From contig DAYA01000075.1 in NCBI GenBank assembly GCA_002506705.1, forward strand, positions 1-43,939: a stretch of 43,939 nt of DNA. Direction: 5' to 3'. Source of the DNA: Euryarchaeota archaeon UBA550. GTDB taxonomy: Archaea; Thermoplasmatota; Poseidoniia; Poseidoniales; Poseidoniaceae. A model generated the notes under the pieces. It was given only the letters and a program-made list of their open reading frames with translations. It did not search any database and was not told the origin of the DNA. The position numbers were made by a program, and so were the translations under genes. Shown here one piece after another: positions 11,881 to 43,939 of this stretch. The first letter of the stretch is position 1. Every line of letters starts with the position of its first letter.

Positions 11881-12202
11881 CCAGTACTGGTTCACCATCT
11901 TCTGTTACAACGACATACTTTGGTCTCCACATTGATGCTTTCACAGGGTCAGGATCAACCAATATATCCAATTCACAGACTTGACCGCAATTCCCTTGTT
12001 TCTCAAGGTGCGCTTCTGTTAGTACGCCAATGATTTTTTCTTGACCCCAAACCACCAGTAGGTCGTTACCAATCAAACGACTTTTTGCTTCCTCAAGGGA
12101 GTCCTCTGCGCCGATAGATGAAAATTCCATGTTCTCGGTTTCACAATTCAGTCCTTCAACTATCCCATAGGTGGGTTCAAGATGGTTGACCTCTAGGGCC
12201 AT
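11864..12202 (-). CDS. Small hypothetical protein, possibly a single CBS-like domain
   Basis: The ORF runs 11864-12244, with in-frame ATGs at 12202 and 12130. The segment AEDSLEEAKSRLIGNDLLVVWGQEKIIGVLTEAHL resembles half of a CBS pair. It overlaps the gltX 3' end by 17 nt (convergent). The start is uncertain. Confidence 0.35.
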   Translation of the reverse strand: MALEVNHLEPTYGIVEGLNCETENMEFSSIGAEDSLEEAKSRLIGNDLLVVWGQEKIIGVLTEAHLEKQGNCGQVCELDILVDPDPVKASMWRPKYVVVTEDGEPVLVSHGP

Positions 12203-12570: not shown

Positions 12571-12628
12571 GTTTGGCCACAGTCTTGAATAGTGTAATGC
12601 TTGCAGACAAGGTTGGTAGGTATTGACA

Positions 12629-17859: not shown

Positions 17860-17921
17860 GACTTTCCACTAGTATGCTATTCTTGAATGATTTGAAGGAT
17901 GATGAGGTTACCGCCCCAATC

Positions 17922-24634: not shown

Positions 24635-24973
24635 ATGCAGGACGATGATATGGCTCTAGAAGTCGTCGTCCCGGTAGACGAAAAGGACGTCGATTCGATT
24701 GCATTAGGAAAGACAATTTGGAATGAGATTACGGCTGGAGTTGGAATATGGGGAGCATTTAGACCAGTCTTTGCAGTAGCATTGTCTCTAGTTCCATTTT
24801 TGTTCCTAGGCCAACATTTCAATCGTAAACATCGAAGAGGATTTGATTGGTTTTTACTTCAGATACCGCTAGCATTCACGCTAGTTCTTTGGGTACTACT
24901 TTACGTTTGGTCAGTGTTTGATGCCTGGAGAGATGCTAGCGTTAACGTCGCAAACAGTCATGACCAAAGTTGA
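24635..24973 (+). CDS. Possible small membrane protein (two TM helices)
   Basis: The distal part of track ORF 24392-24973 starts at the ATG at 24635 (MQDDDMALEVV...). It has two hydrophobic helices (VFAVALSLVPFLFLG, LLQIPLAFTLVLWVLLYVWSVF). The proximal part of the ORF is antisense to pcp. Weak call. Confidence 0.35.
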   Translation: MQDDDMALEVVVPVDEKDVDSIALGKTIWNEITAGVGIWGAFRPVFAVALSLVPFLFLGQHFNRKHRRGFDWFLLQIPLAFTLVLWVLLYVWSVFDAWRDASVNVANSHDQS

Positions 24974-25716
24974 TCACTGCACTTTAGTTCCCCACTAGCC
25001 ATGCCCTCAAGGTCAGCTTTGTCATCATCATCGAATTCATCAGGAATGCTTCCTGAAAAGATATTCCCGATGCTACTGCTTTCAATAGCCCAGTACATCA
25101 CAGAGTCATCATTACTTGAGTGACCTGGATGGTCGGGATCTTCGTGGTCTATTGGAGAAGTGTATACCAAGTTTACCAAACCAAGCAAGTGACCTGCCTC
25201 ATGAACAGTGACTGCTCTTTCTATTTCCTCTGCTGATGGACGTCCCAAGAAGTTTTCAGAATCTTCAATTGAATCCTTGAATACTGCCACTGTAGATGCA
25301 TCTACTGCAACTCCCAATACCGAATCATCATTGTATGTCCCCTTTGGGAATAGGAAATACCAGTTGAGAGTATCAGAGCCCATGGCATCATCGCCATGTT
25401 TCCATCTGGCATCGCGCACGTCGTTTGCGCTCCATGAGTTGTCTTCACTGAAATCAACCTCTCGAGCAACGATTTGAATTCCGCCTGGTTTGTCGCAAAC
25501 CTGGTTTAGTCTTGTTTTGAGCAGATCCATCGCCACTGGATCATATCCGTTTTCAAACAAAAAGTGGATTTTCATCCCCTCAAATCGATCATCTTGAAGG
25601 CAAGCCAATGCTAGTCCACCAGGGATTCCGCGCTTTTCTTCAAACAATTCTTCTGTTCCGAAACAACCTGCGAGGCTGCTTGAAATTAGTACAAAGATTA
25701 CAAAGACTACTCGCAT
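24958..25716 (-). CDS. Secreted lipobox zinc metalloprotease (metzincin-like)
   Basis: MRVVFVIFVLISSSLAGC has a canonical L-A-G-C lipobox. HEAGHLLGLVN (HExxHxxGxxN, 25189-25203 for HEAGH) is followed by a SVMYW Met-turn-like motif. GGTGAT SD lies 4 nt upstream and overlaps the stop of the preceding gene. Confidence 0.7.
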   Translation of the reverse strand: MRVVFVIFVLISSSLAGCFGTEELFEEKRGIPGGLALACLQDDRFEGMKIHFLFENGYDPVAMDLLKTRLNQVCDKPGGIQIVAREVDFSEDNSWSANDVRDARWKHGDDAMGSDTLNWYFLFPKGTYNDDSVLGVAVDASTVAVFKDSIEDSENFLGRPSAEEIERAVTVHEAGHLLGLVNLVYTSPIDHEDPDHPGHSSNDDSVMYWAIESSSIGNIFSGSIPDEFDDDDKADLEGMASGELKCSDQLWS

Positions 25717-25724
25717 TTAATCAC

Positions 25725-26147
25725 CTAAAAATCATCTGGAATTTCTGTTGGGCTAAACAATTGTCCTGGACCTGCTGCTTGGGATAATTGGTTCCTTGCA
25801 AGGTGTTCCCATGAGCGCATTACTCCCAATGCGTCACTTACCAACATTTGTTCTTCTTCCAAAGTTACCCTAATCAGCGTATCAAGAATATCCATTCTAT
25901 CTCTATCGACCAATGATAGAGCCTTCTCAAGATCAAAACTTGCACTACTCTCTACTGGTTCAGAGTCTAGTGGCCAAGGCTCTGACAAATTGCTAGGCAG
26001 TTCGTTGGTGTGCTCTTTTAGTTGTGATAACAAACGATTTGTCCACCTTGATATTACCAAACTCGTTTCCAAGATTGGCATGTTTAGTTGGTTGATCAAA
26101 TTCACCAACCTCTCTTGCAATGTGACCATTGAATCTGCGCCACTCAT
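25725..26147 (-). CDS. Hypothetical acidic cytoplasmic helical protein (140 aa)
   Basis: No signal peptide or TM segment. GAGGT SD lies 8 nt upstream, and only 17 nt separate it from the stop of the 1790 aa gene. No family recognised. Confidence 0.55.
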   Translation of the reverse strand: MSGADSMVTLQERLVNLINQLNMPILETSLVISRWTNRLLSQLKEHTNELPSNLSEPWPLDSEPVESSASFDLEKALSLVDRDRMDILDTLIRVTLEEEQMLVSDALGVMRSWEHLARNQLSQAAGPGQLFSPTEIPDDF

Positions 26148-26164
26148 CTGACTACCTCAAATGT

Positions 26165-29100
26165 TTACTTACTATTTTGTAGATATTGGTGACCATAATG
26201 GTTCCATTGTTCCATAGTCCATCCTTCTGGCAAGCCAGTTGGAGGCAATGGAGGTGTAGCGCTGCCAGCACCTTGTGACAGAGGCGGAGCATTCTGCACA
26301 GGAGCTACAGGGGCGGCTTGCTGGATTTCAGGAACCATCTTTGTATCCATGGTTTCAATAACCTCAGCGGTCTGGTCTGATTCATCTACTTCCTCGCCAC
26401 GGCGAATTCTGCGCATCTGTACCATTGTCCAAACAGCAAACGACATTGATACCAATGCAATCAGATACATGATAACTGATAGCTGTGAATCTGCAACCTG
26501 GTTCGCAAGTGCAGTTCCATCTCTTTCAACTTCTTCTTTTACAAGGAGTGGTGAGATTGAGATTCTTTCTTTCTCTACTCCTGAGTCTAGAAGTAGTATC
26601 CTGTGTTCTAGCGTGTCATCTACTGCTCCGTCAGCGGTAGCGTCCAGCCTAACTTGTGCCTTCTTCCCACTAGAAATTTCAATTGACGAAGAGGAGATTG
26701 TTGCCCAGTCATCACCCGAAACAAGTCTCTGTAGAACAAATGTTACAGCTCCTGATGCTCCAGTGTTTCTAGCTTCGATGGTTAGTGTTACTGCTTCATC
26801 TGGATTTGGAGTTGGGTTAGACCATTCCCATGTTGTATCCGCCGCTCTCAGACTAACTTCAGGACCTGTCAAGGCCAGTGGCCAAGATGCCAATGGGTCA
26901 GAGACAGTATTTCCATCACTGTCGTAAGGATTTCCTGACTCATCTGAACCTGTAACCCAAATGTCGATTGTGTAAGATGGAAGGAGCATGGTAGCACCTC
27001 CATCTGTCAAGTCAAGATATCCCGTCCAGAAGAATTGATCCTCGAATGGTGTAGTATCCGGTAATGGAGATGACCCTCTGCTGATTTCAGCCTCGCCTGC
27101 CCTAACAAGGTAATGCAATACTGCAGGATCTTCTAAAGAGAATCCTTGATCATCTCGTGTTTCGAGCATGACTTGCAAGTTGTTTGCTAGGGATATCGGA
27201 ATTTCCTGATTAGGTTCAATTCCGCCTAAGGTTACGGCGTGAATTGTTGGTCTCTCACTATCGACTGCCAATCGGAGTCTTGGTTTGAACTCGGATTCAT
27301 CTTCAGCGAGTCCGGGCAGGTCTGTCAGTTTAGCACGTAGGTCGAGGTGGCCACTCCTGACATCTGGCACAAGCATGTCAATACTGAAGTATCCACCCTC
27401 TCTGCTTGTAGTTGTCCATTCATTTTCAAAATCCCCAAGTGATATTGTGAAAGTGCCTGCTGGAGCAGGAGTCTCATCCTCTGAGAAAATTACTCTTCCA
27501 CTGAAGCGTAGAGCTTGCCCCGCACCGATTAGAGTTTCATCAAATTCAGGATTGTAATGGTTGGTTCCATCTCGCAATTCGATTGCAAGAATGTGACCTG
27601 GCTGAGTATCAAAGCGTAAGTCATTATCAAGGCTCCACAAATCATTACCCAGTCCGGCTTTGTGTATGTTACAAGGAAGTTCTATGTCAATTCCACAGGA
27701 CTTATCCTCAATCCAGACCTTTGGAATGAAGTGCTCATTACCGTTCGTGTCCCAAACCTCTGGGAAGTTCCAAGTAAGTTGGAATTTAATCGATACAATC
27801 ATTCTAGATTGGCTATCTGGGTCCAAAATAATCGAAGAGTATAGATTGGAAACTGCTAATCCCGTACCTCCACTCTCGAGATGCATCTGTGGCATTCCTT
27901 CCGAGCTTTGTGAAATGTAAGCAAAAATTGAGGTTTCATCATCATCGAAATCTCCGGCTAAAGCCAAATGCACGAATTCTACGTCCCACCATCCGTTGAT
28001 ATCTGAAATCATGAAGGTTGCAGTGTATGGAATTCCAGGATGTAATGGAGCCATATCATCGTGCCCTGTTATGGTTGAGTTATCTACATCCATAATCGGT
28101 TCAAACTCCTCGCGTATTGTGTACCATGATAGAGAGTTATCCCATTCGGGTTTGACTTCACCAGGTTTGTCCCCACAGAATCCTCCAGGTTCTATGTCAC
28201 AAACTGGGGAACCACCCATGGCAATGACGTTGTCTTGACCATCTTTACCCGTTACATAAAAGGAAACCTTGTCTCCATGTACAAGCATTGAATCATCGAT
28301 TAATCCGTTGAATACATTCAATCCGCCTGTTAAAATCTCAGGCGTAGTTAACGTCTTAGATCTGTATTCGATAGGTTCGGGTAGTCCATTGAAATTCGAG
28401 TCATCACACCTCTCGTGAACTCCGGCTTCGCATCCAATCCAATAGTGCAGGTCAACAGTTTGTGGTGGGTCTACAGAATCTTGGATTATGATTTCAATCG
28501 CTTGACCACCTGGCGAAGGAGGTCCTTTGTGCATCTCCGAGGAGATTTCTGGACTTGCAAATAGGACAAGTGGAGAATTACCGTCAAAAATCAACTTTAC
28601 TGTATTGTACCCTGGATTGACGTAGGTGGAACCGTTTTCGAGATCAACAACTTCCACGTAAAGTACCATGCCACCTGGTGTTGATTCGATTGGAGAGCTA
28701 AAGGTCATGTTATATTGGCCAAACCCAGGATTACCTTCAGTATGAAGTACAGTAGGTTCTCCGATAGGGTCACCATCATAGGTTACGTTTTGACCAATAA
28801 CTCTGAGTGTAAATTCACCTGCTCTTGGTGAGAATGCTGAGTTTTCAAAGTTGATTCCTCCAGTGATTGAGAGATTTAATCCCCCTCGAACCCAATCTCC
28901 AGAATACAATTCTCTTCCTGTTTCCTCCCAGACCCTCATACCATCTAGCTGGATATCGTTCTCAATGTTCAGAGCGAGCGTGTCTGTTGTCCAACTATTC
29001 ACTTGTGGACCTAGGTCATCGCTCAAGGAAACAATTGCTTCCATCTTCCTCTCATCATCCCATGTCCAATTAACTCTAAGTGGCATCTTAACCGATACTA

Positions 29101-31537
29101 TTCCCTCGCTGTCCATTGTTGAGGTACAATTTCCAATGTCGAACTCGACGATACCTCCGCCATCACTCTCAACCGAGCAGGTATCACCACGCAGCCATCT
29201 AAATGCTGGGTTATCACCGTATGAATTATTCAAACCAATTGTAGCCTCTGTGACACGATCAACCAAATCTCCGTGAGCTAATCTAACAACTAAATTTCTG
29301 TATACACCATCAGGAGCAATCAAGCCTCCTTCGAGGCTTGCGTCCATTACTCTAGTGTTGAGTCTGTATTTGATGTCAAGGTCTGTAAGTTTGACTCTGC
29401 CGGGGGTGTTTGCTTTGACTGCTATCGGTATTTCGACTGTGCCAACCCCATTCGCCGGAATGTGGTCGTTGAATGCATCTACAAGGCTTGGAGTTTCTGA
29501 TACTACTGTTCCAACCGGTGAATCATCAGATGCAACAACAGAACTCTCGTTTAGGAACAGTATTGACTTCCAATCCCAGTCACCATCATCTCCGACATCT
29601 AACTGCGGAGCATCAGGATAGCCTTCCTCATACCACAAGATGAAGGAGTCGACGGAAGGAGTGACTGTATTGTCAGTAGTTGCTAAAATGATAGAATAGA
29701 GTAGTTCATTACCAGCGCCTGAGGTTGAGAATGAAACTTCCTGATTGTTTGTTGCAGACTCCCACGTCGAACCATTATCGTTGGAAACCATTACGCTAAT
29801 GCTCGAACTTGAGGGTTCATCAGCAGTCCATACAGCTCTAACTTTTCCAACATTAGTGCCTGTTGACACCTTTTGGCTTGTCCAGTCTCCAGAAGTTTGG
29901 TATGAAGTAGCGTATTCAAGGGAAACCCACCAAGATACGGCAGATGAACCTATGAGTTGCATTTTCCAAACTAATTGATTTCCTGGGTGTGTGAAGTGAA
30001 TGGTTTGGTTTTTCTCAACTGGCTCCCAGTGAGTGCCGTTGTCCGCACTTACCCAGTAGTCAACTCTGTCTCCTTGCGATGGCGCAGACCAGTGGTTCAT
30101 GAAATTAACAGCAAGAACTTCGTCTTCAGTCTCGATTGTCTCTCCAATCCAGGTAGTGGTACCAGGAGCAGGTGTTGTAGGGTAAGATATGCCCATTCCA
30201 AATTCCCGGTAGTAGAGAGTTTTTGAACCCCATGTCGAATATCCGGTATCGACTGTGATGATTCTTTCACCGTTGTAGAAGAGACCTAGCCCCTTCGCAG
30301 AAATATCTTGGGTACCTGTTTGTGGCACTAATGAAGAAGAACTGCCTGAAATAGCCCAAGCGCTCAGTTGGTCTGTGTCTTGATAATAGCTGCCTTTCAT
30401 GCACCGCATGTAGAAGAAGCCAGAATGGACCACGAGACCGTGCACGTTGCTGGAGGTCTTGCCACACTCGGTGTTAGAGGATGAACTTGAAGAAAATGAA
30501 TACTGTTCCTCTCCCCGAGTAAATTGTCCATTATCTCCAAAGTCGTATGATACGATTCTCCTCTGTTGTCCATGAGCAACCCAAATTTTGTCACTTTCTC
30601 TGTCGTATGAGATCGCACTATATTCGCCATATTGCGGTGAAATATCGTAAGAGTCGACACAGCGCCAAATCCAATCATCTGAAACATCTATTGCCAAAAC
30701 TCTACTGTGTTGAGTTGGGTTTGAATTACCGTACATGTACTTGTATGTTGTAAAAATACCATACAGCATTTCTTCGTCATTGATTGTCCAATCTTTGAAA
30801 CCATATGATTTGTAATAGGTCGAACTTGGGTCCTGTGGTAAAGTGCAAGCTGCTTCCTGTTGCAAGTCAACAACGATATCCCTTGTAACGTTGTTGGGGT
30901 GCATCCTTGTTACTACCTTGTCGAATTGGGTGCCAGTAAATGTTGACATGAAAAGCCAATCATGGTTTTCAAGAATTGCACCTTGACCTTGAGCCATCAA
31001 GTTTGAACTGGTCATTTTGACTTGGTTGCTGAACCTAGATTCGGTAGAATTCGAGGTGTGAGGTTGGCGTACGGCAAAGCTACCATTGTCTAGCCAAGCA
31101 TCTGAACCTGGTAGAGTTTCTTCACTCACCCCATGGGATGAGAACTCAAAATCACCATCACCAAATCCAAGTGTTAAGTCTCCACTTCGTGCGTCACTTT
31201 GACTAGAAACACCATCCATCCATTCTTCGTATGTATCGGTTGAAACTTGGGACCAACCTGTTGACGAAGCACCAGATAGGGTGACCTGTACGTCTAGAAC
31301 TTCAGCCCCCTTCGGCATTGCGACTACAGTTGTCTTGTCTGCGCCACCTTGGTACAGTGCGATATTTTCAACACTCCCGTCAGAGAATGTGTAAATGTGA
31401 CGAGATGAACTGTTTGCTTCCGCTTCGGTGATGAACATCTCTGAAAACGGACTCATTGGTGTAAGCACGAGAATGAATACCATCATTGACAGCGCGGCAC
31501 GAGATGAAAATTTCTGCGACATTTCCCAACGACCCAT
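26165..31537 (-). CDS. Giant (1790 aa) surface protein with C-terminal TM anchor and proline-rich cytoplasmic tail
   Basis: Signal peptide: RAALSMMVFILVLTPMSPFSEMFITEAEA. Two tandem ~90 aa modules each carry an Asp-box (VSADNGTHW, VSNDNGSTW; 29627-30154). TM helix: VIMYLIALVSMSFAVWTMVQ. The 83 aa tail ends PPLPPTGLPEGWTMEQWNHYGHQYLQNSK. A TATA-like GGTTAATTC sits ~29 nt upstream of the ATG. Confidence 0.85.
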   Translation of the reverse strand: MGRWEMSQKFSSRAALSMMVFILVLTPMSPFSEMFITEAEANSSSRHIYTFSDGSVENIALYQGGADKTTVVAMPKGAEVLDVQVTLSGASSTGWSQVSTDTYEEWMDGVSSQSDARSGDLTLGFGDGDFEFSSHGVSEETLPGSDAWLDNGSFAVRQPHTSNSTESRFSNQVKMTSSNLMAQGQGAILENHDWLFMSTFTGTQFDKVVTRMHPNNVTRDIVVDLQQEAACTLPQDPSSTYYKSYGFKDWTINDEEMLYGIFTTYKYMYGNSNPTQHSRVLAIDVSDDWIWRCVDSYDISPQYGEYSAISYDRESDKIWVAHGQQRRIVSYDFGDNGQFTRGEEQYSFSSSSSSNTECGKTSSNVHGLVVHSGFFYMRCMKGSYYQDTDQLSAWAISGSSSSLVPQTGTQDISAKGLGLFYNGERIITVDTGYSTWGSKTLYYREFGMGISYPTTPAPGTTTWIGETIETEDEVLAVNFMNHWSAPSQGDRVDYWVSADNGTHWEPVEKNQTIHFTHPGNQLVWKMQLIGSSAVSWWVSLEYATSYQTSGDWTSQKVSTGTNVGKVRAVWTADEPSSSSISVMVSNDNGSTWESATNNQEVSFSTSGAGNELLYSIILATTDNTVTPSVDSFILWYEEGYPDAPQLDVGDDGDWDWKSILFLNESSVVASDDSPVGTVVSETPSLVDAFNDHIPANGVGTVEIPIAVKANTPGRVKLTDLDIKYRLNTRVMDASLEGGLIAPDGVYRNLVVRLAHGDLVDRVTEATIGLNNSYGDNPAFRWLRGDTCSVESDGGGIVEFDIGNCTSTMDSEGIVSVKMPLRVNWTWDDERKMEAIVSLSDDLGPQVNSWTTDTLALNIENDIQLDGMRVWEETGRELYSGDWVRGGLNLSITGGINFENSAFSPRAGEFTLRVIGQNVTYDGDPIGEPTVLHTEGNPGFGQYNMTFSSPIESTPGGMVLYVEVVDLENGSTYVNPGYNTVKLIFDGNSPLVLFASPEISSEMHKGPPSPGGQAIEIIIQDSVDPPQTVDLHYWIGCEAGVHERCDDSNFNGLPEPIEYRSKTLTTPEILTGGLNVFNGLIDDSMLVHGDKVSFYVTGKDGQDNVIAMGGSPVCDIEPGGFCGDKPGEVKPEWDNSLSWYTIREEFEPIMDVDNSTITGHDDMAPLHPGIPYTATFMISDINGWWDVEFVHLALAGDFDDDETSIFAYISQSSEGMPQMHLESGGTGLAVSNLYSSIILDPDSQSRMIVSIKFQLTWNFPEVWDTNGNEHFIPKVWIEDKSCGIDIELPCNIHKAGLGNDLWSLDNDLRFDTQPGHILAIELRDGTNHYNPEFDETLIGAGQALRFSGRVIFSEDETPAPAGTFTISLGDFENEWTTTSREGGYFSIDMLVPDVRSGHLDLRAKLTDLPGLAEDESEFKPRLRLAVDSERPTIHAVTLGGIEPNQEIPISLANNLQVMLETRDDQGFSLEDPAVLHYLVRAGEAEISRGSSPLPDTTPFEDQFFWTGYLDLTDGGATMLLPSYTIDIWVTGSDESGNPYDSDGNTVSDPLASWPLALTGPEVSLRAADTTWEWSNPTPNPDEAVTLTIEARNTGASGAVTFVLQRLVSGDDWATISSSSIEISSGKKAQVRLDATADGAVDDTLEHRILLLDSGVEKERISISPLLVKEEVERDGTALANQVADSQLSVIMYLIALVSMSFAVWTMVQMRRIRRGEEVDESDQTAEVIETMDTKMVPEIQQAAPVAPVQNAPPLSQGAGSATPPLPPTGLPEGWTMEQWNHYGHQYLQNSK

Positions 31538-31592
31538 GTTTCGGTGTTATCCATAGGACTTGAATTAACCGGCGACAGGTCACAATCAGAAA

Positions 31593-31610
31593 TCCCCCCT
31601 TTAGGGGGGA
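31593..31610 (-). terminator. GC-run hairpin (TCCCCCC-TAAA-GGGGGGA) between the two giant genes
   Basis: Perfect 7 bp stem, 10 nt downstream of the 1895 aa gene stop (31620-31622). TTT follows on the transcribed strand. It lies upstream of the TATA-like element of the next gene. Confidence 0.45.
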
Positions 31611-31619
31611 ATTCTGTAC

Positions 31620-37307: not shown

Positions 37308-37385
37308 CTACGGGCGCGGTAGCACCCATACGGATTGTTACTACTGAATCAGCCTTAATATAGTGATGGAGCAATGTTCAGACTC

Positions 37386-37404
37386 AGATTACCTTTGGTA
37401 ATCT
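37386..37404. promoter_or_regulatory. Perfect 8 bp inverted repeat AGATTACC-TTT-GGTAATCT in the divergent intergenic region
   Basis: Read directly from the sequence. It sits ~80-100 nt from both the giant-gene start and the MBL start. It is either a candidate operator or an RNA hairpin. Confidence 0.3.
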
Positions 37405-37461
37405 AAAACGCTTAATCAAATCATCACAAAATAAGAAATTCAAGGGGTGAGTTCAAGGGCC

Positions 37462-37471
37462 CAACGCGTTG
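37462..37471. promoter_or_regulatory. Perfect 10 nt palindrome CAACGCGTTG, 18-27 nt upstream of the MBL start
   Basis: Read directly. It is embedded in a longer imperfect palindrome, AAGGGCCCAACGCGTTGCCGTCCCTT (37455-37480). It occupies the position where a TATA/BRE or repressor site would be expected. Confidence 0.25.
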
Positions 37472-37488
37472 CCGTCCCTTAGTTCGAG

Positions 37489-38307
37489 ATGTCCCTAACA
37501 TTCACCCACCTTGGAACTGGTAGTCGCGGTAATGCGACTCTGGTAGAGAGTGGTGATGCAAAAGTACTGATTGACCAAGGTTTCTCTGGCAAACAACTCG
37601 AAACTAGGCTTGCGAGGATGGAAATCAATCCAACAGAAATTGATGCGATTGTTCTAACCCACCATCATGGCGATCACGGAGGAGGCGCATCAATCGCTCA
37701 GAGGAGATGGAACATACCCATCTTTTGCAATGACAGAACAGCGACTGCACTGAATCTCGACTTGAAAGGGGTTCAACTTTTTGAAAGTCTAGAAGCACTA
37801 AATTTCGCAGACGACTTAGCACTATTACCCGTACCAGTACCTCACAGCGGCGCAGACAATGTCGCATTCATTGCAAGCCATAGAGGCGAGAGGGGAGCTG
37901 TAATCACAGATTTAGGCTCATGGACTGACGAATTGGTAACCCATGTTGCAGGATGCCAACATATCTCAATAGAAGCGAACTATGACCACAACAGGTTATG
38001 GAACGGTCCTTATCCTAGACGACTGAAAGACCGCATTGCGGGAAGAGGAGGTCACCTTTCCAACGACCAAACAGGACAATTCCTTTCACAAGTAGTTGAC
38101 AAAAATACTCGGTCCCTTGTTCTGACTCACTTATCAGAAAAGAACAATGCACCGCATATTGCTGAATCTAGCGTACTGTACCACATCGACGAAATGTTCG
38201 AAGGCGATATTCAGATTTCTCTACAAGATGGACCTGAATTCTCACACCACATCGGACAAACAGAAAGTGAGAGAGTTGCTCGGCGAGGATTAACACTTCG
38301 AGGATAA
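37489..38307 (+). CDS. Metallo-beta-lactamase fold hydrolase, YycJ/WalJ-like
   Basis: LGTGSRGNATLVESGDAKVLIDQGFSGKQLE...IDAIVLTHHHGDHGGG carries the HxHxDH motif. The overall N-terminal pattern resembles B. subtilis YycJ-type MBL exonucleases. 272 aa. Confidence 0.8.
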   Translation: MSLTFTHLGTGSRGNATLVESGDAKVLIDQGFSGKQLETRLARMEINPTEIDAIVLTHHHGDHGGGASIAQRRWNIPIFCNDRTATALNLDLKGVQLFESLEALNFADDLALLPVPVPHSGADNVAFIASHRGERGAVITDLGSWTDELVTHVAGCQHISIEANYDHNRLWNGPYPRRLKDRIAGRGGHLSNDQTGQFLSQVVDKNTRSLVLTHLSEKNNAPHIAESSVLYHIDEMFEGDIQISLQDGPEFSHHIGQTESERVARRGLTLRG

Positions 38308-38328
38308 GCCCTGTAAGGGCTTGTTTTT
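38306..38328 (+). terminator. Hairpin AAGCCC-TGTAA-GGGCTT followed by GTTTTT
   Basis: 6 bp stem starting inside the TAA stop (38305-38307), followed by a T5 run at 38324-38328. This is intrinsic-terminator-like. It lies 40 nt upstream of the first pilin-like gene. Confidence 0.5.
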
Positions 38329-38367
38329 GGTGAAACCCTAAGAGGGTGGTTCACTCTCTCCTACACA

Positions 38368-39405
38368 ATGAGGTCACAACGCAAGTCCGATAGTGACCTC
38401 GCAGTCAGTGAAGTCATCGGTGTTGTGATGCTACTTGCGATGGTGATCACAATGATGGGAGGGGTGTTTGTATTCCTTACCCCATATGTCAATGATTTTC
38501 AAGACAATACCGCATGGTCAAACGCAAATGGGATTGCTGAAAGGCTAGACGGAAGGATTGATGTCGTTGCAGGCGCAAGTGCTGACACCGGACTTAGAAC
38601 TACAATTCCCCTAACTATGAGCTCAATTTCTCCTATCATTAGTGCAGAAGTGTGGACTGTCTCAGCAGATTTGACTGCGGAAGAGATTGTCACAGTCGAG
38701 TACATTAATCAAACTACATTCAGTGTTACCTCGGAAAACGAAACAGCCGACCGTGCCATAATTTGGACTGAAAGCGGGGAAGTCGAAATAACATTCAATG
38801 AAACTTACGAAGAGGTTTTGATAACCCATAACTTGAGTGTTGCAGACATATACATCGTAACAATATTCGATGGGGAAAACGAGATTCATAAGCATGCAAA
38901 GATACCAATCTCAGGACTAATGGTAAAGACGAAAGTACAGACAGGTGAGCATTCTATTGGACTACTGAACGACGCTCGTTACGACAAATTCTCTGATGAA
39001 ACCTGGAGCATAACTTCATTTCCTGACATGAATATAGAAGAGTTATTCGACGGCACAATGAGGGCTAGTTTGTCTCTGAGAGACGTAGATACTGCCGGTG
39101 CGATTCCTGACGGCAGAAACGCAGTCTTCGACGTCCGCTCTGAAGGCCCAATTACTCTCTTTAGTGGTGATGCATGGAACTTCAGATTTACATTTGAATC
39201 ATCATTGGGCCCAACTGTCGCCCCACAGATGACTGAAGGATGGCTAACCGACTACAACCTTCACAGAGCGTCTAACACTTTAGACCAGCATAGAGGTATC
39301 AGTCCGTGGTTAAGGGCAAGCGGAATCGATGGTCTGACAATAGACCACGGTAATTCTGTTATCGATTTAGAAATCGAATTACAATTAGTGGAGGTTAGCA
39401 AATGA
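38368..39405 (+). CDS. Archaeal type IV pilin-like protein (class III signal peptide, DUF1628/Pilin_N-type N-terminus), 345 aa
   Basis: The N-terminus MRSQRKSDSDLAVSEVIGVVMLLAMVITMMGGVFVFL matches the archaeal Pilin_N pattern (charged n-region, A-V-S-x-V-I-G-V, ~20 aa hydrophobic helix). The stop overlaps the next start (ATGA at 39402-39405). Confidence 0.65.
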   Translation: MRSQRKSDSDLAVSEVIGVVMLLAMVITMMGGVFVFLTPYVNDFQDNTAWSNANGIAERLDGRIDVVAGASADTGLRTTIPLTMSSISPIISAEVWTVSADLTAEEIVTVEYINQTTFSVTSENETADRAIIWTESGEVEITFNETYEEVLITHNLSVADIYIVTIFDGENEIHKHAKIPISGLMVKTKVQTGEHSIGLLNDARYDKFSDETWSITSFPDMNIEELFDGTMRASLSLRDVDTAGAIPDGRNAVFDVRSEGPITLFSGDAWNFRFTFESSLGPTVAPQMTEGWLTDYNLHRASNTLDQHRGISPWLRASGIDGLTIDHGNSVIDLEIELQLVEVSK

Positions 39406-41450
39406 TTCGCAATAACCTCCGCAGAGACGAGGAAGCAGTAAGCGCTGCTGTAGCCACGGTCCTACTCTTCGGCGGAGTAATTTCAATTATTGGAATTATG
39501 TTACTTTCATTAATGCCAGTTATACAAGAATTAGAGGGTTCTCTCAAGAGGAACGACATGCAAGCTCAAATGGAAATAATGGCACATGAGGTCACATTAC
39601 TTTCTGAATCCGGATTACCCGGCGATTCAAGTCAAGTAGAACTTATTCCGGTCGATGGAGAACTTAGATGGGATAGATTCAGGGGAGGTATGTGGTACTC
39701 TGCATCTTGGTATGAAGGTGATACTTTCAGAATTCAAGGAGCTTTAGACTTGGATAGAAATATTGAGGTTAGGCATGCTGAAAGCAACGTACAAGCGATT
39801 TGCTACGAAGACATGAGACTAGGTCCGGATAGACCATTCATTTTTACACCTAATAATCAAACTGATACAGTATTAGTAACGCCCAAACACGGTTTGACAA
39901 TACCGCTTGGTCCTGTAGAAATTGAACACGCTGGGATAGAACACACCCTTTCGATAGGAGAAGTCATGAGTTTAGATTCAAACAGCCAAATCAAATCAAG
40001 TCATGATTTGGTTGGATTACAGTTGAAGGGAGATTCAGGGGTTGCACTAATGCCTCCCTCCAAGCCAGACCCCGCAACCGGTAAGGGGCAGCATTGGGCA
40101 ATTCCTTTACCATCGGGAGAAACGACAATTGAAGTCTTTGCAAACGATGATATTCTCGTTCAATGGCATACTCTCACCGATTCTGGGCAAGAGGCTGTAC
40201 CCCAAACCAATGCGGTTAGAATAGCGAATTCATGGACAAAAACATTCAACCTTTCAGAGATTAGTTTAGTGGAGATAGTTACTGACGTAGATGCTCATCT
40301 GATAATTTACCATGGAGATTCTGGCAAAACATCTCTACTGGGAGAAGAGGGTAATTATCTCTCTAAGCACTTCATAGCGCCTTCTCAATCTGGAAATTTG
40401 TCATTCTCTAATCCTAGTCAGAATGCTGCAACGATTACATGGAAAAATGGTGGTATCTCAGTGCCTGCCAACCAAACTATTGAAGTTGAGTGGCCTCCTT
40501 CAAACATCGATAGCGCTGCAATCTTAGAAAGTAGCGAGAATGTCATTATTCAGTGGAAACTAAATGGCAAGGGAATGACATTGTTGCCAGCCACAGATAC
40601 AGGCCAAATCACTGGTCTAGAATTCATTGAAGATAATTCACAGACGACTATCAACTACTCCTCTGAATATGATGACTACAAATCAATTTTAGCAAAAGAT
40701 GGAAATTCAGGAGTTCTTGCATTAGAGGATGATGGAGCCATGCGTTGTGTTGCAATAGACCAAACTGCATCAGGATGGATTTCAACAACTCTGCCGTGGA
40801 AATCAATGAATGGTATACCTGAAGGGCAAATCATCACTGCTTGGAGAGATGGGGATCACCCGGCAAGTATCGAGATAACTTTGATCGGGACTGAAGGAGA
40901 TGCAACCCACGCCAACCTAGCCACTGCATGGGCATTCCATATCTCAAGACTAACTTACGAATTTGATACCTCGATTACTGGACTGGAGGTGGCATGGTCC
41001 GCTGGTGCAGTTGTTACAAATCATCCCGAGTTGGACCCGACTATACTGGTCGGACCAACAGATAGACAAGGTCCCGGACCAAGGTTTAGCGCAACAATAC
41101 CTTCTATGCACCCTACAAAAACATCAGTTACTGGTAGCGGTATAATGGATCTCGACATTGAATTATCCATGAGAGAAAGTTTAGCGTCAACTACAGCATA
41201 TGATGTTAGAAGAGGATGGGTAGGACCATACGGAGATGCGGTTGCTTCTTGGGCAAGCACGAGCCTAGAGACTTCCGAAGACTGGATAGTTAACCCTGGA
41301 AGAATTGACTTACTAACTGACTATGTTGGCTGGGTCCCTGTTCCAACAGTTGGACCTAGTGAAGCTGTATGGCATACAGCAGGTCAACCAATACAATTCA
41401 ACCTGCAAATAAGCAGCCTGAATGTTGAAATTTCGGAGGCTGGGTCATGA
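39402..41450 (+). CDS. Large pilin-like protein with class III-type N-terminus, 682 aa
   Basis: N-terminus: MIRNNLRRDEEAVSAAVATVLLFGGVISIIGIMLLSLMP. GGAGG (39390-39394) lies 7 nt upstream of the ATG. The stop overlaps the next start (ATGA at 41447-41450). Confidence 0.6.
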   Translation: MIRNNLRRDEEAVSAAVATVLLFGGVISIIGIMLLSLMPVIQELEGSLKRNDMQAQMEIMAHEVTLLSESGLPGDSSQVELIPVDGELRWDRFRGGMWYSASWYEGDTFRIQGALDLDRNIEVRHAESNVQAICYEDMRLGPDRPFIFTPNNQTDTVLVTPKHGLTIPLGPVEIEHAGIEHTLSIGEVMSLDSNSQIKSSHDLVGLQLKGDSGVALMPPSKPDPATGKGQHWAIPLPSGETTIEVFANDDILVQWHTLTDSGQEAVPQTNAVRIANSWTKTFNLSEISLVEIVTDVDAHLIIYHGDSGKTSLLGEEGNYLSKHFIAPSQSGNLSFSNPSQNAATITWKNGGISVPANQTIEVEWPPSNIDSAAILESSENVIIQWKLNGKGMTLLPATDTGQITGLEFIEDNSQTTINYSSEYDDYKSILAKDGNSGVLALEDDGAMRCVAIDQTASGWISTTLPWKSMNGIPEGQIITAWRDGDHPASIEITLIGTEGDATHANLATAWAFHISRLTYEFDTSITGLEVAWSAGAVVTNHPELDPTILVGPTDRQGPGPRFSATIPSMHPTKTSVTGSGIMDLDIELSMRESLASTTAYDVRRGWVGPYGDAVASWASTSLETSEDWIVNPGRIDLLTDYVGWVPVPTVGPSEAVWHTAGQPIQFNLQISSLNVEISEAGS

Positions 41451-41917
41451 CGAGTAGATTGGTTGAGGACGAATCTGGAGCAAGTACAGAACTTGGCTAC
41501 ATTTTCACATTCATGCTCGGAGTATTGTTCCTGTCAATGTTTAGTGTATGGGCGTTTGGCCTAGAAACCTCAACAAGAGAAAATTGGAATACAACCGCTG
41601 TTGATGTAAACATGGCAGATATTGCTGCTGCGGTCGAAAGGGCCGACACTGCAAGCAGAGAAGACTCCAGTGTAAGTTATGCAGAAGTTGTGACATGGAG
41701 ATTAACCGAAGCTGATGAGACAGAATTTGTTCTCACCCTAGATGACACAGGATTATCACTTGACCATAGCGAGAATGAACTGGATAGGGAGGTTTCGATA
41801 TCAGGAACAGGATATGGCACATATGATGGAAGAATCAATCTTTCAGGAACCGCAGAAATTTGGATCGTCTACCACGAAGGCGTGACCTATCTATCAACAA
41901 CTAGACCAGATTTCTGA
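41447..41917 (+). CDS. Small pilin-like protein with class III-type N-terminus, 156 aa
   Basis: The N-terminus MTSRLVEDESGASTELGYIFTFMLGVLFLSMFSVWAF resembles the (A/G)-(V/S)-S-x-x-L-G-Y-(V/I) N-termini of haloarchaeal pilin-like DUF proteins. GGAGG (41435-41439) lies 7 nt upstream of the ATG. Confidence 0.6.
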   Translation: MTSRLVEDESGASTELGYIFTFMLGVLFLSMFSVWAFGLETSTRENWNTTAVDVNMADIAAAVERADTASREDSSVSYAEVVTWRLTEADETEFVLTLDDTGLSLDHSENELDREVSISGTGYGTYDGRINLSGTAEIWIVYHEGVTYLSTTRPDF

Positions 41918-43939
41918 TTATCTGCCCATCACAGCAGTATGTACCATCATCTGTACTTCCCGCATTCTAGTCTGGGCACCTAATTCTCTGAAAACCGATA
42001 ATGCTCTCTGAAGGTATTCCATCCTACGTTGTCTATCTGGGGCAACTCCGCCTAATCTCGCTAGTAGTTCACCGATTTGCATTCTCAAATCGTTTGCTTC
42101 GGAGATAACTAGTGCTTCTCGGTATCTCTCCAACGCTTCTTCGATTCTACCGCTGTCTTGGAGAACCTCGCCCAACAAAATTGATACTTCCACCAAGGCA
42201 AGCGGGTCTCCTGCTTCTCCCATTGTTGATAGGGCATCTGTATAGTGATGCAAAGCCAAATCAGAATCGCCAGTCTTTGCGTAATATCTTCCAAGAACAG
42301 CTCTAGCTCTTGCATGTAATATTGCATCATCACTTGATTCAGACCTCTCATAGGAGGATAAAGCGTGGTCTCTTGCTCTATCACTCTCACCCAAATCTAG
42401 TAACGCTCTAGCCAATACAATCTGAGCAGGAATTAATTCTGAAGAATCATTACTAGAAAGAATGCTCTCGACTTCACCATAAGCCTCCAATGCCTTTGCT
42501 TTGTCTCCGTTTCTTCGGAGGATATAGCCCATGTTGTTGTAAGAGCGAGCAGCCCCTATTGCGTCGCCCATGGATATGAATAATTCCAGAGCATTTCTGT
42601 GCATTCCAAGGCTTCCTTCTGAATCGCCTCTCTTCAGAGCAATGTCTGCTAAATTCGAAACAATGTCTGCGATAACGTCGTCTAAACCTGCTGCTTCGGC
42701 TGGTGGTTTCGCTTGGTTGAATGCTTCCTCAGCTTCATCGAAACGACCGAGAAGGGCTAGTACTTCTCCCCTGAGTCTATCGACCCTACATGCGCTGTCT
42801 GCACCTACTGATTTTGTATCGATGGATTCCAATAGGCCCAACAATTCAATGTGTCCTTCTTTGATTAAGTCTCTACCTTGCTCTACCACTAATTTTGTAG
42901 CATCTTCGTGCCTTGAAGAAGAAATTAGATGGTAGATTAACTCAAGAGCAATTTGGCTTGATTTGGTTTGTTTACTGTACCAAGCAACTGCTTTGTTGTG
43001 AAGATCTTCTCTGGATTGTTTGTCAAGACTTTGGAGAAGGAATTCTCTAATTAGATCGTGAACATCATAAGTGCCTGAATCAGCATTGCGTGCTAGACCA
43101 GATTCGACTAGTGAATCTAGTTCATCAGTATTCAGACCTTGTTCTGTTAGAGCCTCTAATTCGATAGGTTCACGGAACACAGATAGAGCCCCAAGTAATC
43201 TCTTCTGCTCACCCGAAAGTTTTGAGAAAATCTCGATATTTACATAATTTTCAAGAGATTCATGGAACGCACCTGCTGATGCTCCACGGTTAATCAATTC
43301 CAAGACTAAAGGATGGCCTCTACTCAAGGAGTGTATGTACAGTAATTTTTCTTGGTCCAAGTCATCAAATGCAGAGAGTAGGGACCTTGTTGATTCTTGG
43401 TCCAATCCTTCTAGTGGCAGAACCAATGAAACAATTCTTCCGTCTGCATCCTTCAGAGGAACGACCTCCTTGAAGGAGCGAGAGAAGATTACCAGTCCAA
43501 CGTCACCTTCACACTCGACAAGACCTCTGGACAATGCTTGAATTGTTTGATGCAGAGTCTTATCACTCACTTTGTGGTAATCGTCGATTACGATTAGAGC
43601 GGGTGAATTAGCAAGAGAATCAACCATTATTCTTGCTGCATCAGCAGACTTTGGAACCGGAGTAGCAGAGATGTAATCTGCTAACATTGAATCTCCAATA
43701 TTCGATAACCAATCAGCAATGCTTTCCAAGAATGCTCGACTTCCCTCCCAATCCTGACATCTATGATACATCAAGTTCCTTCGATGCATAAATGATTCAA
43801 TCACTTTTGCTGCCATAGAAGTTTTTCCTATACCCGCTATTCCAGGTACCATCAAAGTCGTTGACCTTGCTTCAAGCAGGTTGACCATGTTTTCTAATTC
43901 GGTTGACCGACCATAGAAATGCCTCAATCTTGGCAAGTC
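41918..43939 (-). CDS. STAND-class NTPase (AAA_16/NB-ARC-like) with C-terminal TPR array; N-terminus outside the window
   Basis: FYGRSTELENM. Walker A PGIAGIGKTS (43820-43843). Walker B LIVIDDYH. GHPLVLEL (GxP motif). Roughly 280 aa of TPR-like repeats follow (ARSYNNMGYILRRNGDKAKALEAY and others). The frame stays open to position 43939 and the track start is only a TTG, so the true N-terminal (effector or DNA-binding) domain is not visible. Confidence 0.8.
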   Translation of the reverse strand, partial: DLPRLRHFYGRSTELENMVNLLEARSTTLMVPGIAGIGKTSMAAKVIESFMHRRNLMYHRCQDWEGSRAFLESIADWLSNIGDSMLADYISATPVPKSADAARIMVDSLANSPALIVIDDYHKVSDKTLHQTIQALSRGLVECEGDVGLVIFSRSFKEVVPLKDADGRIVSLVLPLEGLDQESTRSLLSAFDDLDQEKLLYIHSLSRGHPLVLELINRGASAGAFHESLENYVNIEIFSKLSGEQKRLLGALSVFREPIELEALTEQGLNTDELDSLVESGLARNADSGTYDVHDLIREFLLQSLDKQSREDLHNKAVAWYSKQTKSSQIALELIYHLISSSRHEDATKLVVEQGRDLIKEGHIELLGLLESIDTKSVGADSACRVDRLRGEVLALLGRFDEAEEAFNQAKPPAEAAGLDDVIADIVSNLADIALKRGDSEGSLGMHRNALELFISMGDAIGAARSYNNMGYILRRNGDKAKALEAYGEVESILSSNDSSELIPAQIVLARALLDLGESDRARDHALSSYERSESSDDAILHARARAVLGRYYAKTGDSDLALHHYTDALSTMGEAGDPLALVEVSILLGEVLQDSGRIEEALERYREALVISEANDLRMQIGELLARLGGVAPDRQRRMEYLQRALSVFRELGAQTRMREVQMMVHTAVMGR

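What the first reader, a model, noticed from the sequence alone, without database searches (positions are those of the whole stretch)
24958..43939. Candidate uncharacterised cell-surface module: two giant proteins, protease, pilin-like triad and a STAND regulator in one 19 kb block
Seen in the sequence, reading by transcription direction:
- An 1895 aa anchorless Ca-repeat/propeller protein (31620-37307).
- A 1790 aa TM-anchored giant (26165-31537), SD-coupled to a 140 aa cytoplasmic protein and a lipobox metzincin (24958-26147).
- Across a 181 nt palindrome-bearing divergent region: an MBL hydrolase, then three translationally coupled genes with class III signal peptides (38368-41917).
- A STAND NTPase-TPR gene abuts convergently (41918-43939).

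There is no assembly ATPase, platform protein, prepilin peptidase, transposase or integrase in the block.

Inference: these genes may act together as a regulated adhesion or surface-filament apparatus. Pilin-like proteins would present or organise the giant Ca-dependent adhesins, and the protease would process them. I do not know of a described system with this composition. Co-function is only suggested by adjacency and shared control regions.
Basis: partly seen in the sequence, partly recalled or inferred. Interest (0 to 1): 0.7.

Follow-up and report, generated by a model that had tools for sequence, protein, structure and literature searches.

The report
Conserved surface-gene neighbourhood of Marine Group II
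The genes are real and sit in the same order in every Marine Group II archaeon examined, but unrelated housekeeping neighbours are kept in the same order too, so adjacency does not show that the giant surface proteins, protease, pilin-like genes and regulator form one machine.

Summary
The window is a Poseidoniaceae (Marine Group II) contig, and the block runs at least 18 kb past the window end: the full 841-aa wHTH-STAND-TPR protein, a 1431-aa beta-helix giant, an S8 protease and a 3179-aa STT3/AglB fusion.

The order giant–giant–MBL–three pilin-like genes–STAND–beta-helix giant–S8 is kept in every sufficiently long related locus (79 species-level genome loci; 80 metagenome loci for the left half). 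It is also kept in MGIIb and in the most divergent clade, at 27–52% protein identity. The giants are therefore core genes of fixed length, not strain-specific islands.

Ribosomal S15, arcTGT, DnaJ, a GT2 and Pcp-NUDIX are collinear to the same depth, so synteny does not argue for co-function. The block splits into separate transcription units. The 1790-aa giant and the metalloprotease are each missing in some clades.

The triad consists of class III signal-peptide (type IV pilin-like) proteins. The 682-aa family is confined to Poseidoniales, and no assembly machinery lies nearby.

Best reading: independently transcribed envelope or adhesion genes, plus a minor or modular pilin operon served in trans. 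An order-wide invariant 20-nt element sits in the promoter of the 1895-aa giant.

The parts
24958..25716 (-). 252-aa lipoprotein zinc metallopeptidase (metzincin-like), last gene of the 1790-140-252 operon
   Evidence: Lipobox LAGC and HEAGHLLGLVN...HEDxxHxGH...SVMYW are invariant in 8 orthologues. Peptidase_M10 is only 18.3 bits against a cut-off of 24. No PDB sequence hit. Absent in MGIIb L172 and in L173.
25725..26147 (-). 140-aa acidic cytoplasmic orphan protein, SD-coupled behind the 1790-aa gene
   Evidence: No TM segment or signal peptide. No Pfam or PDB match, even with a profile. Conserved order-wide at 30-43%. Sits directly behind the 1895-aa gene where the 1790-aa gene is deleted.
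26165..31537 (-). 1790-aa type I membrane giant: signal peptide, ~1650-aa ectodomain, TM at 1684-1708, Pro/Trp-rich cytoplasmic tail
   Evidence: Topology. No Pfam, NCBIfam or PDB match, also with profile A3. 36-86% identity and near-constant length across the order. Missing in the L035/38/46-48/51/52/55/132/150 clade.
31593..31611 (-). Terminator-like hairpin TCCCCCCtaaaGGGGGGA plus T-run after the 1895-aa gene, followed by a promoter-like GGTTAATTCAAG box for the 1790-aa gene
   Evidence: Conserved in the closer clades.
31620..37307 (-). 1895-aa secreted or N-terminally anchored Ca-binding giant with 12 TSP3-type repeats and a possible beta-propeller region (~aa 400-740)
   Evidence: TSP3_bac 1.1e-4. 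12 DxDxDGxxDxxE motifs. Only an N-terminal hydrophobic segment. Propeller hints are sub-threshold. 37-98% identity and length 1891-1965 aa in nearly all loci.
37312..37327 (-). Short hairpin just upstream of the 1895-aa start codon (minus-strand RNA GGGUGC-UACC-GCGCCC)
   Evidence: Apparent compensatory substitutions between clades were seen by eye. No formal covariation test was run.
37354..37383 (.). TATA-like CTTAATATA plus an order-wide invariant 20-mer TGATGGAGCAATGTTCAGAC; candidate promoter/operator of the 1895-aa gene
   Evidence: Core is present exactly once per locus in 74 of 85 loci; those lacking it appear to be short loci that do not reach this intergenic region. Also in MGIIb and the most divergent clade. 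Unique in the window. Lies 50-67 nt from the 1895-aa start in 59 of 68 loci, but 24-151 nt from the MBL start. No Rfam match.
37386..37404 (.).
   Evidence: Present, but conserved only in the closer clades.
37489..38307 (+). 272-aa cytoplasmic MBL-fold hydrolase, first gene co-directional with the pilin-like triad
   Evidence: Lactamase_B 3.7e-16 and Lactamase_B_2 1.6e-14. Only generic PDB relatives. 47-98% identity order-wide. Followed here by a hairpin plus T-run (38306-38328), but overlaps the next gene by 4 nt in L169.
38368..39405 (+). 345-aa class III signal-peptide (type IV pilin-like) protein
   Evidence: DUF7289 29.8 bits (cut-off 27). Pilin_N 23.9 (cut-off 25.2). Conserved (D/E)x(A/G)VSEV(I/L)GV(V/I)M N-terminus. 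The profile's only PDB hits are archaeal pilins 8fj5 and 8gi2, weak at E 0.05-0.2.
39402..41450 (+). 682-aa class III signal-peptide protein (large, modular pilin-like), translationally coupled
   Evidence: DUF7289 22.2 bits, below cut-off. Shares only its first 50 residues with the 345-aa protein (hhalign E 4.9e-5). Family of ~14 full-length 50%-identity clusters among 1.84 billion representatives. Every member that carries an informative name is Poseidoniales, or the broader labels Euryarchaeota or Thermoplasmatota. AF2 model is poor (pLDDT 44).
41447..41917 (+). 156-aa class III signal-peptide protein, the smallest and most pilin-like of the triad
   Evidence: DUF7266 28.0 bits (cut-off 27.6). 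AF2 pLDDT 79.5: one long N-terminal helix (10-72) plus a 7-strand beta domain. No significant Foldseek match in the PDB.
41918..43939 (-). C-terminal 672 aa of an 841-aa wHTH-NTPase(STAND-like)-TPR protein, cut by the window end
   Evidence: TPR_12 8.8e-26; AAA_16, nSTAND6 and nSTAND1 below cut-off. Walker A GIAGIGKT and the N-terminal winged-helix-like segment were read from the sequence. Most conserved protein of the block, 50-98%.

Best explanation
This is part of an order-wide conserved, core-genome neighbourhood of cell-surface genes in Candidatus Poseidoniales (Marine Group II). It is made of several independent transcription units rather than one demonstrated apparatus.

1. The 1895-aa Ca-binding TSP3-repeat giant is transcribed alone. 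Its promoter carries an invariant 20-nt element, and the gene ends at a hairpin terminator.
2. The 1790-aa C-terminally anchored giant, the 140-aa cytoplasmic protein and, where present, the lipoprotein metalloprotease form an SD-coupled operon.
3. A cytoplasmic MBL-fold hydrolase plus three translationally coupled class III signal-peptide proteins form a second operon.
4. Beyond the window, STT3/AglB, an S8 protease, a 1431-aa beta-helix giant and a wHTH-STAND-TPR regulator follow one another on the minus strand.

Inferred mechanism:
- The giants are constitutive glycoproteins of the cell envelope or adhesive coat. They are as conserved as the housekeeping neighbours and have fixed length.
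- The triad is a set of minor or modular pilins. A prepilin peptidase would process them, and an ATPase/platform pair encoded elsewhere (pilus or archaellum machinery) would assemble them.
- The 345- and 682-aa proteins would carry their own functional ectodomains rather than presenting the giants.
- The wHTH-STAND protein is a transcription regulator whose targets are unknown.

Shown: gene content, topology, conservation and operon anatomy. Inferred: every functional step.
For: - Taxon and identity of the contig.
- Gene order is identical in every sufficiently long locus of L007-L085, in MGIIb and in divergent clades.
- The giants have fixed lengths. At comparable divergence their identity (53-60%) equals or exceeds that of DnaJ (56-66%), arcTGT (45-54%) and GT2 (40-47%).
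- Terminator and promoter anatomy.
- Class III N-termini are conserved. Pfam DUF7289 and DUF7266 score above their cut-offs. The only PDB sequence hits of the 345-aa profile are archaeal pilins. The 156-aa model is a helix plus a beta domain.
- Pilin sets encoded away from their ATPase/platform are the norm in archaea (PMC4858521; PMC12448462). A PilA-type DUF1628 gene is among the most highly transcribed MG-II genes (PMC5069720).
- Archaellum operons with ArlI/J exist in MGIIa (PMC6336850, PMC6461757).
- Large modular minor pilins that act directly in adhesion are known (PMC8179133).
- Thermoplasmatales carry an unordered glycoprotein layer instead of an S-layer (PMC12448462). An STT3/AglB gene lies in the same neighbourhood.
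Against: - No expression, proteomic or structural data were available.
- The machinery in trans was not located. Genome scans were capped.
- The 156-aa model has no significant structural match to solved pilins. The 682-aa model is unreliable.
- An MBL hydrolase coupled to pilin-like genes has no precedent in type IV filament systems and is not explained.
- Order-wide retention of the same arrangement could still reflect functional coupling that this analysis cannot see.
- The 140-aa gene and the protease remain directly behind the 1895-aa gene when the 1790-aa gene is deleted. This hints at a link between the giants and those two genes.
Confidence: 0.55

Rival explanations
1. One reading: one regulated adhesion or filament apparatus. 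The pilin-like triad forms a stalk or tip complex that presents or organises the Ca-dependent giants. This would be analogous to bacterial minor pilins presenting the Ca-binding beta-propeller adhesin PilY1. The metalloprotease matures the giants and the STAND protein regulates the set.
For: - The genes stay together across the whole order, including MGIIb, at 27-52% identity.
- The triad operon and the 1895-aa gene diverge from one intergenic region that holds an invariant element.
- The 140-aa gene and the protease stay directly behind the 1895-aa gene where the 1790-aa gene is deleted.
- The anchorless 1895-aa protein needs some means of retention at the surface.
- The regulator is the most conserved protein of the block.
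Against: - Housekeeping neighbours are equally collinear (PMC10877094).
- The transcription units are separate, with a terminator between the two giants.
- The promoter-like box shared by the 1790-aa and MBL genes is generic.
- The invariant element is positionally tied to the 1895-aa gene only and occurs nowhere else in the held part of the neighbourhood (window; L001).
- The 1790-aa giant and the protease are dispensable in some clades.
- No assembly machinery lies nearby.
Confidence: 0.2
2. The triad does not build a filament. Class III signal peptides are used only for membrane insertion and processing, as in the Sulfolobus bindosome. This would leave three ectoproteins anchored by their N-terminal helices, working with the cytoplasmic MBL hydrolase in an unknown envelope process.
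For: - No ATPase or platform in about 54 kb around the genes.
- Two of the three proteins are far larger than filament-forming pilins (345 and 682 aa).
- The triad is coupled to a cytoplasmic enzyme, by a 4-nt overlap in L169.
- The three proteins share only their first ~50 residues.
Against: - Trans-encoded machinery is usual in archaea (PMC4858521, PMC12448462).
- The 156-aa protein has the size and the helix-plus-beta architecture of a pilin.
- Large minor pilins of 250-550 aa are common in euryarchaeal pilus loci (PMC4858521).
Confidence: 0.2
3. The MBL hydrolase and the STAND NTPase are an anti-virus defence pair (AVAST type 1-like) that happens to sit among surface genes.
For: Weak Avs1a and Apyc1-type hits for the MBL protein.
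Against: - All PADLOC hits are marginal, and the Avs1a hit (E 0.0036) is well below the NCBIfam cut-off.
- Both genes are single-copy core genes, in a fixed position across an entire order, at 47-98% identity. This is the opposite of defence-island behaviour.
- The STAND protein has a wHTH N-terminus and a MalT/AfsR-like TPR region.
- The two genes are separated by the triad and lie on opposite strands.
Confidence: 0.03

Closest known systems
Archaeal type IV pilin sets encoded apart from their ATPase/platform (Methanococcus maripaludis minor pilins EpdA/B/C; Haloferax PilA1-6; Cuniculiplasma CdiPA/B)
   Same: Several adjacent genes with class III signal peptides. There is no machinery in the locus. 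The sizes range from small to several hundred residues, and the ectodomains are all-beta (PMC4858521, PMC3875500, PMC12448462).
   Different: - The families are lineage-specific. The 682-aa family is found only in Poseidoniales.
- No prepilin peptidase lies in the operon, unlike the epd locus.
- The operon is coupled to a cytoplasmic MBL hydrolase.
- Its position between giant surface-protein genes is fixed order-wide.
Bacterial minor-pilin tip complex with PilY1 (Ca-binding beta-propeller adhesin)
   Different: There is no sequence or structural relationship. The propeller is unconfirmed. The genes lie in divergent, separate transcription units. Whether they interact is untested.
Modular type IV pilins (e.g. 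Streptococcus sanguinis PilB)
   Same: A pilin N-terminal module is fused to a large extra ectodomain, as in the 345- and 682-aa proteins (PMC8179133).
   Different: The example is bacterial. The module identity here is unknown, because the AF2 model is poor and Foldseek was uninformative.
Giant archaeal envelope glycoproteins with an associated subtilase (Staphylothermus tetrabrachion with STABLE protease; from my own knowledge) and the exterior protein layer of Thermoplasmatales (PMC12448462)
   Same: Very large, C-terminally anchored, sequon-rich surface proteins are encoded near membrane-bound S8 and metalloproteases and near the oligosaccharyltransferase.
   Different: There is no sequence similarity to any solved or annotated S-layer protein. 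The envelope of Marine Group II has never been imaged at this level.
Bacterial TSP3-repeat adhesion proteins (Myxococcus CglD, MtsD)
   Same: The 1895-aa protein has DxDxDGxxDxxE calcium-binding repeats, with weak NCBIfam hits to these families.
   Different: The scores are far below the cut-offs (23.6 against 400, 20.5 against 800). Only the repeats match, and no VWA domain was detected.

Membership tests
Archaeal type IV pilin-like proteins (class III signal peptide; Pfam Pilin_N / DUF7289 / DUF7266) | Short charged N-terminus, a small residue (G/A) at the cleavage site, then a ~20-residue hydrophobic helix | tested here: met
   All three proteins have it, and it is conserved in orthologues across the order. 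DUF7289 scores 29.8 against 27 for the 345-aa protein. DUF7266 scores 28.0 against 27.6 for the 156-aa protein. Pilin_N (23.9 against 25.2) and DUF7289 for the 682-aa protein (22.2 against 27) fall below their cut-offs.
Archaeal type IV pilin-like proteins (class III signal peptide; Pfam Pilin_N / DUF7289 / DUF7266) | Pilin fold: a long N-terminal alpha-helix packed against a beta-sheet or Ig-like head | tested here: inconclusive
   The 156-aa model (pLDDT 79.5) has a helix at 10-72 plus 7 strands, but no Foldseek hit to a solved pilin (best E 0.41). The 682-aa model is unreliable.
Archaeal type IV pilin-like proteins (class III signal peptide; Pfam Pilin_N / DUF7289 / DUF7266) | Cleavage by a prepilin peptidase (PibD/FlaK/EppA) | not testable with these tools
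   This needs biochemistry or a surrogate host.
Complete type IV filament system (ATPase + platform + prepilin peptidase + pilin) | An assembly ATPase, a TadC/PilC-type platform and a peptidase encoded in the locus | tested here: not met
   None was found among the ORFs of at least 100 aa in the 44-kb window or among the downstream genes in L001.
Metzincin metallopeptidases | HEXXHXXGXX(H/D) zinc motif followed by a Met-turn | tested here: inconclusive
   HEAGHLLGLVN has an invariant Asn at the third-ligand position. A conserved HEDxxHxGH and an SVMYW follow. Peptidase_M10 scores 18.3 bits against a cut-off of 24.
STAND NTPases with TPR sensor (MalT/AfsR-like regulators) | A P-loop NTPase of the STAND class, plus C-terminal TPR repeats and a DNA-binding domain | tested here: inconclusive
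   The TPR region is strong (TPR_12 8.8e-26). Walker A GIAGIGKT is present. AAA_16 (30.1 against 32.6), nSTAND6 (24.1 against 27.7) and nSTAND1 (21.5 against 27.1) fall below their cut-offs. The N-terminal winged-helix was read from the sequence only.
Bacterial/archaeal TSP3 calcium-binding repeat proteins | Tandem DxDxDGxxDxxE repeats | tested here: met
   There are 12 canonical motifs in the 1895-aa protein. TSP3_bac has E 1.1e-4 but scores 22.4 bits against a cut-off of 25.
Anti-phage AVAST type 1 (Avs1a MBL + STAND) | Significant match to the Avs models and patchy, island-like distribution | tested here: not met
   Avs1a E 0.0036 in PADLOC, and 18.5 bits against a cut-off of 420 in NCBIfam. 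The genes are core and positionally fixed order-wide.

The most novel reading that the evidence does not exclude
The ~40-kb neighbourhood encodes the so far unknown cell envelope and attachment coat of Marine Group II archaea as one system. In this reading:
- The secreted Ca-binding 1895-aa giant is tethered to the cell by a short pseudopilus built from the three pilin-like proteins.
- The C-terminally anchored giants are held from inside through their shared Trp-rich tails, possibly by the 140-aa protein.
- Surface proteases trim the coat.
- The wHTH-STAND regulator switches it through the invariant 20-nt operator in front of the 1895-aa gene.
Probability: 0.12. Interest if true: 0.75.

Novelty: new variant of a known kind. 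Interest (0 to 1): 0.4.

Why it matters
Marine Group II archaea are among the most abundant archaea in the surface ocean. They have never been cultured, and their cell envelope and their means of particle attachment are unknown.

This locus supplies a short list of candidates:
- order-wide, single-copy, fixed-length giant surface proteins;
- lineage-specific pilin-like proteins;
- a dedicated-looking regulator;
- an invariant cis-element.

These could serve as targets for metaproteomics, immunolabelling, cryo-ET interpretation and heterologous expression.

The analysis also shows that gene adjacency is a weak argument for co-function in Poseidoniales, because large stretches of functionally mixed genes stay collinear across the order.

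Tried and rejected
- **AF2 of the 682-aa protein.** With a shallow alignment the mean pLDDT was 44. The Foldseek hits had TM about 0.1 and are meaningless.
- **Foldseek of the good 156-aa model.** No significant PDB match.
- **Sequence and profile searches of the PDB.** Nothing useful for the 1790-aa, 1895-aa, 252-aa and 140-aa proteins.
- **Lenient Pfam scans** of the putative propeller, the 1790-aa N-terminal region and the 140-aa family gave only noise.
- **PADLOC.** No defence assignment.
- **Rfam** on the window and three loci found nothing.
- **tblastn** of the 345-aa protein against plasmids found no match.
- **Literature searches** for DUF7289, DUF7266 and related names returned nothing. 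No paper describing this cluster was found.
- **Second copies of the invariant element.** None in the window or in the 22-kb locus L001 that holds the neighbourhood, so it does not define a local regulon.
- **The TTCAAG box shared by the 1790-aa and MBL genes** was rejected as module-specific, because it also precedes arcTGT and another unrelated gene.
- **Tail motif scan.** A regex for the Trp-rich tail motif was too strict to be informative.
It was worked around through cluster look-ups.

Full report
**Observation**

The ORF list and translations reproduce every gene in the finding at the stated coordinates. A hydropathy scan and sequence reading give these topologies:
- The 252-aa protein has a lipobox (LAGC).
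- The 140-aa protein has no hydrophobic segment.
- The 1790-aa protein has an N-terminal signal, a TM helix at 1684-1708 and an ~80-residue cytoplasmic tail.
- The 1895-aa protein has only an N-terminal hydrophobic segment and 12 canonical DxDxDGxxDxxE repeats.

Pfam results:
- The MBL protein matches Lactamase_B (3.7e-16).
- The 345-aa protein matches DUF7289, Pilin_N and DUF7266.
- The 682-aa protein matches DUF7289 below cut-off.
- The 156-aa protein matches DUF7266.
- The last gene has strong TPR plus sub-threshold AAA_16 and nSTAND hits.
- The 1895-aa protein matches only TSP3_bac.
- The 1790- and 140-aa proteins match nothing.

The SD-coupled junctions, the two ATGA overlaps, the abutting stop codons and the 181-nt intergenic region with its palindrome (37386-37404) are all present.

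No ATPase, platform, peptidase, transposase or integrase is encoded among the ORFs of at least 100 aa in the window or in the genes held downstream of it.

Two descriptors are weaker than stated. The 'propeller' has only sub-threshold hints. 'Metzincin' rests on HEAGHLLGLVN plus SVMYW, with an Asn at the third-ligand position and a sub-threshold M10 score.

**Source and true extent**

The 682-aa protein occurs identically on Tara Oceans contigs and on GCA_002719055.1. Its relatives are named Candidatus Poseidoniales or Poseidoniaceae.

The rest of the window holds archaeal housekeeping genes (S15, arcTGT, GluRS, PheRS beta, RNase HII, DnaJ) and further secreted proteins.

The block is cut by the window end. 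Downstream lie, all on the minus strand:
- the complete 841-aa regulator, with a winged-helix-like N-terminus;
- a 1431-aa beta-helix giant with a C-terminal TM;
- a membrane-bound S8 protease;
- a 3179-aa STT3/AglB fusion.

**Conservation**

A scan of one genome per species returned 79 loci, with the 682-aa orthologue at 96-39% identity. tblastn with all proteins shows the order 1790–1895–MBL–345–682–156–STAND–beta-helix–S8 in every locus long enough to show it. Protein lengths are nearly constant.

The exception is one clade (L035, 38, 46-48, 51, 52, 55, plus metagenome loci L132 and L150). There the 1790-aa gene is missing, and the 140-aa gene with the protease follows the 1895-aa gene directly.

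A profile search of 1.84 billion cluster representatives found only about 14 full-length clusters of the 682-aa family. Every member with an informative name is Poseidoniales, including Thalassarchaeaceae (MGIIb), or carries only the broader labels Euryarchaeota or Thermoplasmatota.

Contexts for MGIIb, for the most divergent clade and for a third lineage show the same arrangement at 27-52% identity. The metalloprotease is absent in two of these three.

The giants are core genes, and the pilin-like genes never sit by a pilus locus.

**Why synteny does not prove co-function**

A metagenome scan anchored on the protease gave 80 loci. In these loci S15–arcTGT–695 aa–DnaJ–305 aa–GT2–168 aa–Pcp-NUDIX continue the collinear order in all long loci, down to the same divergence. 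Pcp-NUDIX, the 168-aa gene, GT2 or DnaJ also flank the block in MGIIb and the divergent clade. A published analysis describes another cluster of more than 10 functionally mixed genes that is syntenic across Poseidoniales (PMC10877094).

The giants are as conserved as these housekeeping proteins. This is unusual for adhesins and fits structural envelope components better.

**Transcription units**

- The 1895-aa gene ends at a 7-bp G+C hairpin with a T-run.
- The 1790-aa gene then has its own promoter-like GGTTAATTCAAG box.
- A TTCAAG box at -27 to -37 also precedes MBL, arcTGT and another unrelated gene, so it is a generic element.
- In this clade a hairpin plus T-run follows MBL. In distant clades the MBL–345 spacer is about 30 nt, and in L169 the two genes overlap by 4 nt. 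MBL therefore belongs with the triad.

**An invariant non-coding element**

The divergent intergenic region carries a TATA-like box followed by TGATGGAGCRNTGTTCNGAC. This element is unchanged across MGIIa, MGIIb and the most divergent clade. It is unique in the window and in L001 and has no Rfam match.

It lies 50-67 nt from the 1895-aa start in 59 of 68 loci, but 24-151 nt from the MBL start. It therefore belongs to the promoter region of the 1895-aa gene. It is a candidate operator, possibly for the adjacent regulator, but this is untested.

**The triad**

The three N-termini are conserved class III-type motifs. Profile comparison shows that the 345- and 682-aa proteins share only their first 50 residues. 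The 345- and 156-aa proteins share nothing significant.

The only PDB sequence hits of the 345-aa profile are two archaeal pilins, and these are weak.

AF2 of the 156-aa protein (pLDDT 79.5) gives a long N-terminal helix plus a seven-strand beta domain. It has no significant Foldseek match. The 682-aa model is unreliable.

The literature shows:
- archaeal pilin sets are commonly encoded away from their machinery (PMC4858521, PMC12448462);
- Methanococcus has a minor-pilin operon (PMC3875500);
- a PilA-type gene is highly transcribed in MG-II (PMC5069720);
- MGIIa have archaellum operons (PMC6336850, PMC6461757);
- large modular minor pilins can themselves be adhesins (PMC8179133).

**Verdict**

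The interpretation as one apparatus is neither shown nor excluded. Its main support, adjacency, is non-discriminating in this lineage. Two proposed parts are dispensable in some clades, and the units have separate promoters and terminators.

The most likely reading is a core neighbourhood of independently transcribed envelope or adhesion genes, plus a lineage-specific minor or modular pilin operon served in trans. Defence (AVAST-like) is rejected.

No paper describing this cluster was found in the library searches run here.

Noticed in passing
window 37354-37383 (also L166 ~7949, L169 ~8055): A TATA-like box plus the 20-mer TGATGGAGCRNTGTTCNGAC is invariant across the whole order Poseidoniales, while the flanking proteins fall to 27-45% identity. 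Its distance to the 1895-aa start is fixed and its distance to the MBL start is variable.
   Followed up: partly
window 37312-37327: A short hairpin lies immediately upstream of the 1895-aa start codon. It shows apparent compensatory changes between clades (GGGCGC..GCACCC, GAGCGC..GCACTC, GGCG..CGCC, AAGC..GCTT). This was judged by eye only.
   Followed up: no
window 26165-26500 (tail of the 1790-aa protein); L001 15096-15500 (tail of the 1431-aa beta-helix protein): Both C-terminally anchored giants have an acidic juxtamembrane stretch, a Pro-rich linker and a Trp-rich extreme C-terminus. The motifs are GWTxEQWxHYGxQY and HPGWxWDxxxNQWVPDPNY, each near-invariant within its family. They may be a shared cytoplasmic docking motif.
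   Followed up: partly
L035, L038, L046-L048, L051, L052, L055, L132, L150: This clade lacks the 1790-aa giant. The 140-aa gene and the metalloprotease follow the 1895-aa gene within ~30-40 nt.
   Followed up: partly
L172 21300-22250; L173 21000-22440: The metalloprotease is absent in MGIIb and in the most divergent clade, where small unrelated ORFs take its place. The 140-aa gene is retained.
   Followed up: partly
L001 20896-22049 and beyond: A 3179-aa protein fuses STT3/AglB oligosaccharyltransferase with CarboxypepD_reg-type domains. It lies in the same conserved array and is 2803-3545 aa in other clades.
   Followed up: no
L059 (CAXQWT010000067.1) and L075 (CAXRAI010000019.1): Contigs carrying this archaeal locus are deposited in MAGs labelled Salipiger bermudensis and Salinimicrobium sp. 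This is probably binning contamination.
   Followed up: no
window 26138-26164, 31538-31570, 37440-37460, 12170-12200, 17860-17900: A (G)TTCAAG box lies 27-37 nt upstream of several start codons (the 1790-aa gene, MBL, a 116-aa ORF and arcTGT). It looks like a generic promoter element with very short leaders.
   Followed up: partly
window 5072-7054, 7168-9540, 12623-14647, 17874-19961: The upstream half of the window also encodes several large secreted or anchored proteins with no family assignment. One is a 660-aa triple-fasciclin plus plastocyanin-like fusion.
   Followed up: no
L171 7569-8303 / L174 9260-9994: The gene caller placed a 244-aa ORF where tblastn finds an intact MBL orthologue (64% identity). 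This is probably a mis-call in that record.
   Followed up: partly
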